From Octopus vulgaris (taxonomy: Eukaryota), in NCBI GenBank assembly GCA_951406725.2, contig OX597820.1, positions 110,050,001 to 110,114,000 of the forward strand: a DNA stretch of 64,000 nucleotides, written 5' to 3'. The notes under the pieces were generated by a model. The model did not search any database, had not been told where the DNA came from, and saw nothing but the letters and a program-made list of their open reading frames with translations. Every line of letters begins with the position of its first letter. The first letter of the stretch is position 1. Of the stretch, positions 10,056 through 11,880 are shown piece by piece. Position numbers and translations under genes: made by a program.

Positions 10056-11880
10056 TGTGCGTTCGAGGGCCTTTGCGCTCGCGCGCCTTTGCGCTCGCGC
10101 GCCTTGGCGCGCGCTGGGGGCTCGGTCGGCCCCTTTGGGCTTGCGTTGTACTGCTTGTGCGTTGTGTGCGTGAGCGCGCTTCGTGTGTGTGGGCTTGCTT
10201 CGGATGTGCGCATGCGTATGTTTGCATACATACCCACACACTCGCATGCATCCCTACCCACATACATACACGCACACCTACTCACACACACACATACACA
10301 CACACATACCCGCACACACACACACATACATACATACACACACATACCCACTTCAGACATACACACACACAGACATACACCCATACACTCACACTCACAC
10401 GCATACACACACACACATACACATGCACACGTACACATACACACACACACACACCTACATACATACATTACACTTGTATACACACACACTTACATTCATA
10501 CACACACACCTACACAGCCATACCCTCACTCAGACACACACATCTACCTACACACACACACAAACACACACTGACACACACCCATACTTACATACATCTA
10601 CACACTCACGCCTACACACATACATACACACATACATAAACACACACTTACACATACACACACATACGCACACACGCATATACTTATACACATGCACACA
10701 CACACACATACATACACACACACATACATACACACACGCATACATACACCCATACACATACATGCATCCTACACACACATACATACACACTCACACATAC
10801 ATACACACACACGCACTCACTCACACACCTGCATGTTCGCGCACACACATGCACATACACACACTTCCCCACACCCACACGTACATACATACACACTCAT
10901 ACACATACACACACACACACACACGGACATACATCTATGCACACACATACATACACACATACTCACATACATTCATCGGACACACTGCCACCCAGACAGA
11001 CACACTCACACATCCACACACACACATACGTACGCGCACACTCGCAGGCGCGCGCACACACGCGCTTGCACCGGTTCGCGCACGCATGCGCGCCGCATGC
11101 ACCTCGCCCTTGGACCCGACGAGACCTCCCGCCCGTTCCTGGGATGTCGCTTGTCGTTGGGTTTTCCCACGCCCGTCTCCGCGGGACCACTCTTCCATCT
11201 TCCCCTCCGCTGGAGTCCTTTTCCTTAACCCCCCCCTTTTTCGTTACACACACGCGCACACATATACACACATTGCTTAAACATATACATTACTCTTACA
11301 CACATTCAATCTACTCGCCATTAATACTACCAAGACACTGGACACACACACACACTACTACCCAACACACGCTGGCACGCTACATACGCCCCCACCCCTT
11401 CCCCTCCCTCCCTTCCTCCTTCCTCCCTTTTCTTACTACTGACCTTTGTCTGCTATGCTGCTGCTATGCTGACCACCGTCTCGCCCTACCTCACACGCAC
11501 ACACTAACACATACATATATTTTTTGTTTTTTTATCTCGCCTCACACACACACATACACACACGCACACGCACACACTCACACATACACACACATCTGTT
11601 GCGTTACCAACCTTGTCTCCACCCTTTTGCCTTTAAAAACCCACTTTGCTCTTGTTATCGTAAACATCCGCCTTTCACCATGTGTAACTCCTAACACCAG
11701 TCGTTTTTTTCTCTATCTCCGTGGCCCGCTCTGGGATCTTTCTTTCCTCTCTCTTCCTTCTTTATGTTTCCGACGAAGAGCTCCGCTCGAAACGTCATAC
11801 CTCCCTGCTTCCATTTCCTGAGCGCCTATTAATAATAATACTGTAATTGTTCCTTTGTTGTTGTTTTTTGTTTCCCGTTT
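10056..11880 (+). mobile_element. Non-coding CA-rich element ending in a PLE-type hammerhead-like tail, with two A-depleted, G-rich patches
   Basis: Bounded by (TA)n on both sides. Hammerhead-like motif at 11766-11800; the tail resembles 34400-34590. Confidence 0.6.
11766..11800 (+). ncRNA. Minimal hammerhead-like motif (U4C variant, imperfect stem I)
   Basis: gttt-CCGACGA-a-GAGC-tcc-GCTC-GAAA-cg-TC-atac, with palindromic ACGT in place of stem III. Confidence 0.55.

What the first reader, a model, noticed from the sequence alone, without database searches (positions are those of the whole stretch)
10056..11880. Vehicle for the edited patches: a non-coding, hammerhead-tailed PLE-type insert in (TA)n
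Seen: a 1.8-kb ORF-less CA-rich unit between two (TA)n arrays, ending in a minimal hammerhead-like motif (11766-11800) and a T-rich tail. The hammerhead marks + as the RNA strand, and the A>G changes are on that strand, as RNA editing requires. CpGs are intact, suggesting a young insertion. Established: PLE pseudo-LTRs carry minimal hammerheads. Inference: a non-autonomous RNA mobilised in trans by a Neptune or Naiad RT/GIY-YIG. Its (CA)-rich body could pair with co-transcribed (TG/TA) arrays to form the ADAR substrate.
Basis: partly seen in the sequence, partly recalled or inferred. Interest (0 to 1): 0.7.

Follow-up and report, generated by a model that had tools for sequence, protein, structure and literature searches.

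The report
Truncated Neptune retrotransposon tail, unedited
This stretch is the tail end of an ordinary, young Penelope-type jumping gene sitting in a TA repeat: hundreds of near-identical copies exist, some still attached to the full enzyme gene that likely copied this one, and neither this copy nor its relatives carry the A-to-G marks of RNA editing.

Summary
The unit (about 10059-11880, between two (TA)n arrays, with a minimal hammerhead at 11766-11800) is real, young and PLE-derived. It is not a separate non-coding element moved in trans. It is the 3' UTR plus pseudo-LTR of an autonomous 6.2-kb Neptune-type Penelope-like element (about 950-aa RT + Cys linker + GIY-YIG ORF, intact in two copies). 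This copy is 5'-truncated about 480 nt after the stop codon and has a ~690-bp deletion not seen in other copies. At least 600 tails share one exact 25-mer. The G-rich 'edited patches' are fixed family sequence, also present in older subfamilies. The window copy has 0 A>G against its family. There is no sense-strand A>G excess: 12 A>G vs 20 T>C in a position-ordered census, and 4 vs 10 variant 25-mers genome-wide. Two residual points: the hammerhead has a U4C core change shared by thousands of related tails, and an ancient editing event fixed in the family's ancestor is not fully excluded (about 10%). Other notes of this scan report edited PLE copies elsewhere in this genome; this family showed none.

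The parts
8900..10056 (.). (TA)n array on the 5' side (target), interrupted almost only by G on + (122 G, 3 C)
10059..11880 (+). 5'-truncated copy of a Neptune-type PLE: last ~2.5 kb of the ~3-kb 3' UTR/pLTR, minus a ~690-bp internal deletion; about 10 nt shorter at the 3' end than most copies
10059..10222 (+). G/T-rich, A-poor island of the 3' UTR, fixed in the family and conserved in older subfamilies; predicted to fold on itself and on the CA-rich flanks; holds a 16-bp tandem duplication shared with three other copies (L051-L053)
10223..11027 (+). CA-rich body of the 3' UTR; deletion of about 690 bp at 10716/10717 (spacing 960 nt here, 1491-1670 nt in 10 other copies with both exact anchors)
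11028..11200 (+). second GC-rich island, fixed in the family; predicted hairpins (z -2.1)
11766..11800 (+). minimal type-I hammerhead: core 11770-11776 with U4C, extra A 11777, stem II 11778-11788 closed by G10.1-C11.1, GAAA 11789-11792, palindromic C-G in place of stem III, predicted cut after 11796, 4-bp stem I with one U-U mismatch
   Evidence: features compared with PMC4209133
11801..11880 (+). U-rich 3' end of the pseudo-LTR; in tandem copies it abuts the ORF leader
11880..12740 (.). (TA)n array on the 3' side (31 G, 0 C on +)

Best explanation
The insert is the 3' UTR and pseudo-LTR of an autonomous Neptune-type Penelope-like retrotransposon, with no A>G editing marks, and was likely written into a (TA)n microsatellite by the family's own RT/GIY-YIG protein, with reverse transcription likely stopping about 480 nt short of the ORF. 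Shown: the 6.2-kb unit with intact ~950-aa ORFs, partial tandems with an upstream pLTR, a fixed 3' end in (TA)n, variable 5' ends, and family-fixed G-rich islands. Inferred from PLE work: the GIY-YIG domain nicks AT-rich DNA, RT starts near the pLTR 3' end and often stops early, and the Cys linker helps choose microsatellite targets. The ~690-bp deletion likely arose by slippage or recombination between CA repeats. The hammerhead is likely weak or protein-assisted (U4C, U-U in stem I) and likely not needed for insertion. The G/T-rich islands likely are structured UTR elements that began as an inverted CA/TG repeat and gained G-C pairs gradually.
For: The tail is followed directly by a PLE ORF in L013 and L027, and the 5' patch lies about 480 nt after the stop in L048. 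38 of 39 loci picked by the ORF end continue to the same tail; intact ORFs in L112 and L123. Domain order is RT, CX4CXXC, GIY-YIG with CCHH. Pfam RVT_1 E 0.002 and GIY-YIG E 0.013, both under the curated cut-offs; 660 homologues, up to 56% identical among those listed. Census of contig C1: 68 of 71 loci mapped, 23 reach the ORF, 10 are full length, 45 start inside the UTR at scattered points, 67 end in (TA)n. Private A>G vs T>C: 15 vs 47 in 75 best-match copies; 12 vs 20 (p 0.86, at most 2 A>G per copy) in 60 position-ordered loci. Genome-wide 25-mer: 600 exact, 604 with A read as A/G, 610 with T read as T/C. An A/G-collapsed alignment of 141 of 156 copies (70 spanning the hairpin arms) gave five high windows, all misalignments when viewed. 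Patch Gs are mostly G in older subfamilies (A at 2 of 81, 2 of 81 and 3 of 67 head-patch sites), and T>C is at least as frequent as A>G.
Against: Which source copy supplied the RNA and the protein for this insertion cannot be seen; the enzyme may have come from a sister copy. No empty-site allele was examined. Neptune versus Nematis was not separated by a tree. After collapsing G to A, both patches match the CA body better than shuffles (72 vs shuffle maximum 54; 91 vs 77). In the mid patch, 5-7 of about 50 G sites are A in three older copies. The genome-wide 25-mer lies outside the hairpins.
Confidence: 0.88

Rival explanations
1. The copy is a truncated autonomous PLE as above, but the G-rich islands are fossils of ADAR hyper-editing of a CA/TG fold-back. 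The edits were fixed in the master lineage before the present subfamilies split, and later T>C changes restored G-C pairs.
For: The head island has 6 A in 165 nt against 50 T. G>A-collapsed patches resemble the CA body beyond shuffles, while the C>T control does not. Predicted stems hold many G-U pairs (14-17). 6 of 8 residual A in the reference copy have a 5' G (p 0.035). Unchecked scan notes report edited PLEs elsewhere in this genome.
Against: The 5'-G bias is absent in three older copies (p 0.24-0.70). No unedited version appears among the first 100 of 312 matches to an A/G-degenerate motif (at most one A each). Lineage changes are T>C as often as or more often than A>G (head 5 vs 1, mid 4 vs 3). 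A TG-rich inverted arm is A-poor without editing, and G-U intermediates are the usual route of stem evolution (general knowledge).
Confidence: 0.1
2. One reading: a non-autonomous, non-coding RNA moved in trans, whose CA body pairs with co-transcribed TG/TA arrays and carries copy-specific ADAR edits into the genome.
For: This copy has no ORF. The three TA arrays of the window near it carry G-only interruptions on +. Short ORF-less hammerhead tails of related families are common.
Against: The sequence is the UTR of the autonomous element. The deletion was seen in no other copy. The copy has 0 A>G and the family shows no skew. Flanking-array polarity is not tied to the element strand: 3' arrays are G-rich at 9 loci and C-rich at 10, 5' arrays at 7 and 16.
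Confidence: 0.02

Closest known systems
Neptune clade of EN+ Penelope-like elements (Craig et al. 2021, PMC8557442, passages; PMC3846280, passages)
   Same: [quoted passage not shown]
   Different: Long (about 3 kb) CA-rich 3' UTR with two structured GC/GT-rich islands. Whether this family already has a Repbase or Dfam name was not checked.
Minimal hammerheads of metazoan PLEs (Cervera and De la Pena 2014, PMC4209133, parts 1-2 of 4 read)
   Same: Extra nucleotide between 9 and 10.1, G10.1-C11.1 pair, palindromic 15.2-16.2 in place of stem III, short stem I; most motifs occur as single, truncated-PLE copies.
   Different: The core has U4C, a variant named in PMC3088659 (passage) for a viroid as lowering in-vitro activity, and stem I has a U-U mismatch.
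Poseidon element PAc of Anolis (Frangieh et al. 2024, PMC11167929, parts 1-2 of 4 read)
   Same: AT-rich target; in vitro its hammerhead is protein-assisted and not needed for insertion, which fits a family that spread with a weakened core.
   Different: Different clade; its hammerhead overlaps the ORF start, whereas here it lies several hundred nt upstream of the first Met in tandem copies.
Non-LTR retrozymes (bioRxiv 10.64898/2026.07.22.740005, part 1 of 5 read)
   Same: Type-I hammerhead related to a PLE pLTR, no protein in the copy.
   Different: Retrozymes are tandem monomers of a short unit; this is a single truncated UTR of an autonomous element.

Membership tests
EN+ PLE, Neptune type | Single ORF with PLE RT followed by C-terminal GIY-YIG | tested here: met
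   In family copies L112 and L123, not in the window copy; Pfam scores below cut-off
EN+ PLE, Neptune type | CX2-5CxxC linker between RT and EN | tested here: met
   CX4CXXC upstream of GIY-YIG; feature from PMC8557442
EN+ PLE, Neptune type | CCHH motif in the EN | tested here: met
   Two Cys inside the GIY-YIG core and two downstream His, read from the alignment
EN+ PLE, Neptune type | Partial tandems giving pseudo-LTRs with a hammerhead | tested here: met
   An upstream tail copy abuts the ORF leader in L013, L027, L111, L112, L114, L118, L122-L124, L127, L129
EN+ PLE, Neptune type | Microsatellite insertion bias | tested here: met
   67 of 68 mapped C1 loci end in (TA)n of 16 nt or more
EN+ PLE, Neptune type | RT phylogeny placing it with Neptune and not Nematis | not tested
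   No named reference sequences were at hand
Naiad/Chlamys PLE | N-terminal GIY-YIG, no canonical hammerhead | tested here: not met
   EN is C-terminal
Non-autonomous PLE derivative / retrozyme | Many copies with a shared ORF-less structure (fixed 5' end or deletion, or tandem monomers) | tested here: not met
   Scattered 5' ends; deletion not seen in 10 other copies with both anchors
Minimal type-I hammerhead | Core CUGANGA...GAAA...UH with stems I and II | tested here: inconclusive
   Architecture met; U4C in 86 of 86 and 78 of 81 motifs; U-U in stem I
Minimal type-I hammerhead | Self-cleavage (as a dimer or with protein) | not testable with these tools
   Needs an in-vitro assay
ADAR hyper-edited retrocopy | Clustered sense-strand A>G against the family sequence | tested here: not met
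   0 in the window copy; at most 2 per copy in the unique segments; no excess over T>C

The most novel reading that the evidence does not exclude
The two G-rich hairpin islands in the 3' UTR of this active Neptune family are fossils of ADAR hyper-editing that became fixed in the master element and were later stabilised by compensatory T>C changes, so RNA editing built heritable RNA structure in a still-jumping retrotransposon.
Probability: 0.1. Interest if true: 0.6.

Novelty: new member of a known kind. Interest (0 to 1): 0.17.

Why it matters
As it stands it is an ordinary 5'-truncated retrotransposon copy. Its use is as a negative control: a young, high-copy PLE family with hairpins in its RNA shows no inherited A>G editing, although other scan notes (unchecked by me) report edited PLE copies in the same genome. 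A side result is of modest interest to PLE and ribozyme specialists. A U4C hammerhead core, reported to lower activity in vitro, is carried by this family (1,527 tails matching a 30-mer of its subfamily group) and by most of 5,875 sister tails (87 of the first 100). This fits the in-vitro report that PLE hammerhead cleavage is not needed for insertion.

Tried and rejected
Rfam at gathering score found nothing in the window, and the monomer hammerhead fold was not significant; neither bears against a minimal motif. Pfam on the split frames of L048 gave no hit. The T>C excess in the best-match set (47 vs 15, p 0.009; 22 vs 9 after removing run-extension sites) did not repeat in the position-ordered census, so I do not claim antisense editing. 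High A>G or T>C windows in collapsed alignments were misalignments across deletions, an inversion or a poly-T tract in the 8 copies viewed; lower-ranked windows were not viewed. Sequencing runs: no RNA holder listed. Contigs of four runs laid on the insert skipped the CA repeats and showed family variants only, so they say nothing on expression or somatic editing. An empty-site allele could not be sought, since short-read contigs cannot bridge 2 kb of (TA)n. The L208 family gave no alignable homologue of the islands. Rows dropped: duplicate loci before counting; 3 of 71 census loci without a mapped tail (L150, L163, L184); two C1 hits not in the census (one held as L022, one not fetched); sites within 6 nt of gaps; and CA-repeat segments (covered). 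Census 5' ends inside the CA body are approximate, and the chaining stopped at internal deletions, so 23 reaching the ORF is a lower bound. Literature searches listed no paper on this family or on inherited A>G editing in PLEs; the library is partial and no supplements were read. Look-ups of scan notes by place (near) and by sequence were empty.

Full report
Observation. The window holds a CA-rich unit from about 10059 to 11880 between (TA)n arrays at 8900-10056 and 11880-12740. Two A-poor, CpG-rich patches lie at about 10058-10222 and 11028-11200. A minimal hammerhead lies at 11766-11800. A descriptor with the features given in PMC4209133 finds it and one other motif at 17972, against 0 hits in 100 block-shuffled windows. 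Its core is CCGACGA (U4C) and stem I has a U-U mismatch. Rfam has no match, and the monomer fold is not better than shuffles.

What it is. The 3' end matches 40 scored places (of 1,280 candidates) at 98-100%, and the 5' G-rich patch matches 40 (of 450) at 96-100%. In L013 and L027 the same tail is followed at once by a PLE ORF. In L048 the ORF stops and the G-rich patch follows about 480 nt later, inside a long CA-rich 3' UTR. Of 39 loci picked by the ORF end, 38 align through to this tail. The unit is 6.2 kb, L112 and L123 have an intact ORF of about 950 aa, and full copies carry an upstream partial tail, the pseudo-LTR. [quoted passage not shown] Pfam hits are weak, and 660 homologues were found. 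By the features in PMC8557442 (passages) and PMC3846280 (passages) this is Neptune-type and not Naiad; Nematis was not excluded by a tree. The host was not determined by my calls; earlier scan notes call it an octopus, and a passage of PMC13282606 lists recently active Penelope families in Octopus vulgaris.

Non-autonomous or truncated? One exact tail 25-mer occurs 600 times. I took the C1 hits in coordinate order (60 new loci plus 11 held; two hits left out). Of 71 loci, 68 mapped: 23 reach the ORF, 10 are full length, 45 begin at scattered points in the UTR, and 67 end in (TA)n at a fixed 3' end. The window copy is one of these truncations. Its ~690-bp deletion at 10716 lies between CA repeats and was not seen in 10 other copies that hold both exact anchors, while a 16-bp duplication at its 5' end is shared with ORF-side-extended copies L051-L053. 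No separate non-coding family is needed.

Editing. Against the family majority the window copy has 13 substitutions in 812 unique-segment sites and none is A>G. Whole-length alignments to four relatives also give none. Private A>G vs T>C are 15 vs 47 in 75 best-match copies and 12 vs 20 (expected share 0.41, p 0.86; at most 2 A>G per copy) in the 60 position-ordered loci. Genome-wide, letting the 5 A of the 25-mer be G adds 4 matches, and letting its 10 T be C adds 10. The one match with G at the central A has 1 A>G in 131 aligned A. Because that 25-mer is outside the hairpins, I also aligned copies in an A/G-collapsed alphabet. 141 of 156 aligned and 70 span the head hairpin arms; the five highest windows were misalignments. 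The G-only interruptions of the window's TA arrays are real in the assembly, but across copies array polarity does not follow the element strand (3' arrays G-rich at 9 loci, C-rich at 10).

Could the patches be old edits fixed in the master? For: after collapsing G to A both patches match the CA body beyond shuffles (72 vs maximum 54; 91 vs 77) while the C>T control does not; stems hold many G-U pairs; and 6 of 8 residual A follow a G in the reference copy (p 0.035). Against: that bias is absent in three older copies. Older subfamilies (about 74-93% alike in the UTR) have A at only 2 of 81, 2 of 81 and 3 of 67 head-patch G sites. In the mid patch they have A at 5-7 of about 50 G sites, but T at 11-22 C sites. 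Where the outgroups agree, T>C equals or exceeds A>G (5 vs 1; 4 vs 3). No A-rich version is among the first 100 of 312 matches to a degenerate motif. In the most distant copy the island's 3' half is a TG-rich inverted arm pairing with the CA body. I give the fossil-editing reading 10%.

Mechanism. Shown: architecture, fixed 3' end in (TA)n, variable 5' ends, youth. Inferred from PMC11167929 (parts 1-2 of 4): nicking of AT-rich DNA by the GIY-YIG domain and reverse transcription from the element RNA, with hammerhead cleavage dispensable in vitro. U4C is present in 86 of 86 and 78 of 81 motifs of this family and in 87 of the first 100 of 5,875 sister tails, while 3,844 related motifs have U4. 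PMC3088659 (passage) names U4C as a viroid variant with lowered in-vitro activity. The ribozyme here is therefore likely weak or protein-assisted; this is untested.

Verdict. A new but ordinary member of a known kind: a 5'-truncated Neptune-type PLE copy. Scan notes of edited PLEs on other DNA of this genome prompted the extra tests; I did not check those loci, and look-ups by this sequence found no look-alike. Supplements of the papers were not read and may list related families. Interest 0.17.

Noticed in passing
G000, e.g. L194-L205: A sister hammerhead tail with at least 5,875 copies. All 12 viewed are about 240 bp or shorter, in or beside (TA)n; about half begin at the same point ~75 nt upstream of the hammerhead and none extends further. 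It may be a true SINE-like non-autonomous PLE derivative or a truncation hotspot.
   Followed up: partly
window 16376-18060 (+): Fragment of a second PLE family (thumb, Cys linker, GIY-YIG frames at 16401-17284) ending in a minimal hammerhead at 17972 with the U3-A8 core variant described in PMC4209133, then (TA)n.
   Followed up: partly
window 8900-10056, 11880-12740, 14867-16373: Three long (TA)n arrays with G-only interruptions on the same strand (122/3, 31/0 and 165/0 G/C, mostly as TGT). Other loci show the same one-sided pattern in either orientation, with both flanks alike (L152, L156, L134). Cause unexplained: slippage of a variant unit, a locus-level strand bias or an assembly effect.
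   Followed up: partly
window 12750-13999: Perfect 355-nt inverted arms 540 nt apart; a fold-back or MITE-like insert right after the 3' array.
   Followed up: no
window 34965-35171 (+), 36239-36463 (-), 62283-63028 (+): Decayed pieces of related PLE ORFs (tblastn 37-59% to the family protein).
   Followed up: no
window about 4960-8900 (+): A LINE with endonuclease (PF14529) and RT (PF00078) frames, broken by stops; by eye a related 3' piece lies on the minus strand at about 14240-14866.
   Followed up: no
L048 minus strand, 6434-9148 of the reversed sequence: Helitron-like Rep/helicase frames next to a PLE copy (named from recalled motifs).
   Followed up: no
L252, L254: Copies whose ORF is 94-95% like the young family while the UTR is only 77-83% alike and the EN part is deleted; possible recombinants or older deletion derivatives.
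   Followed up: no
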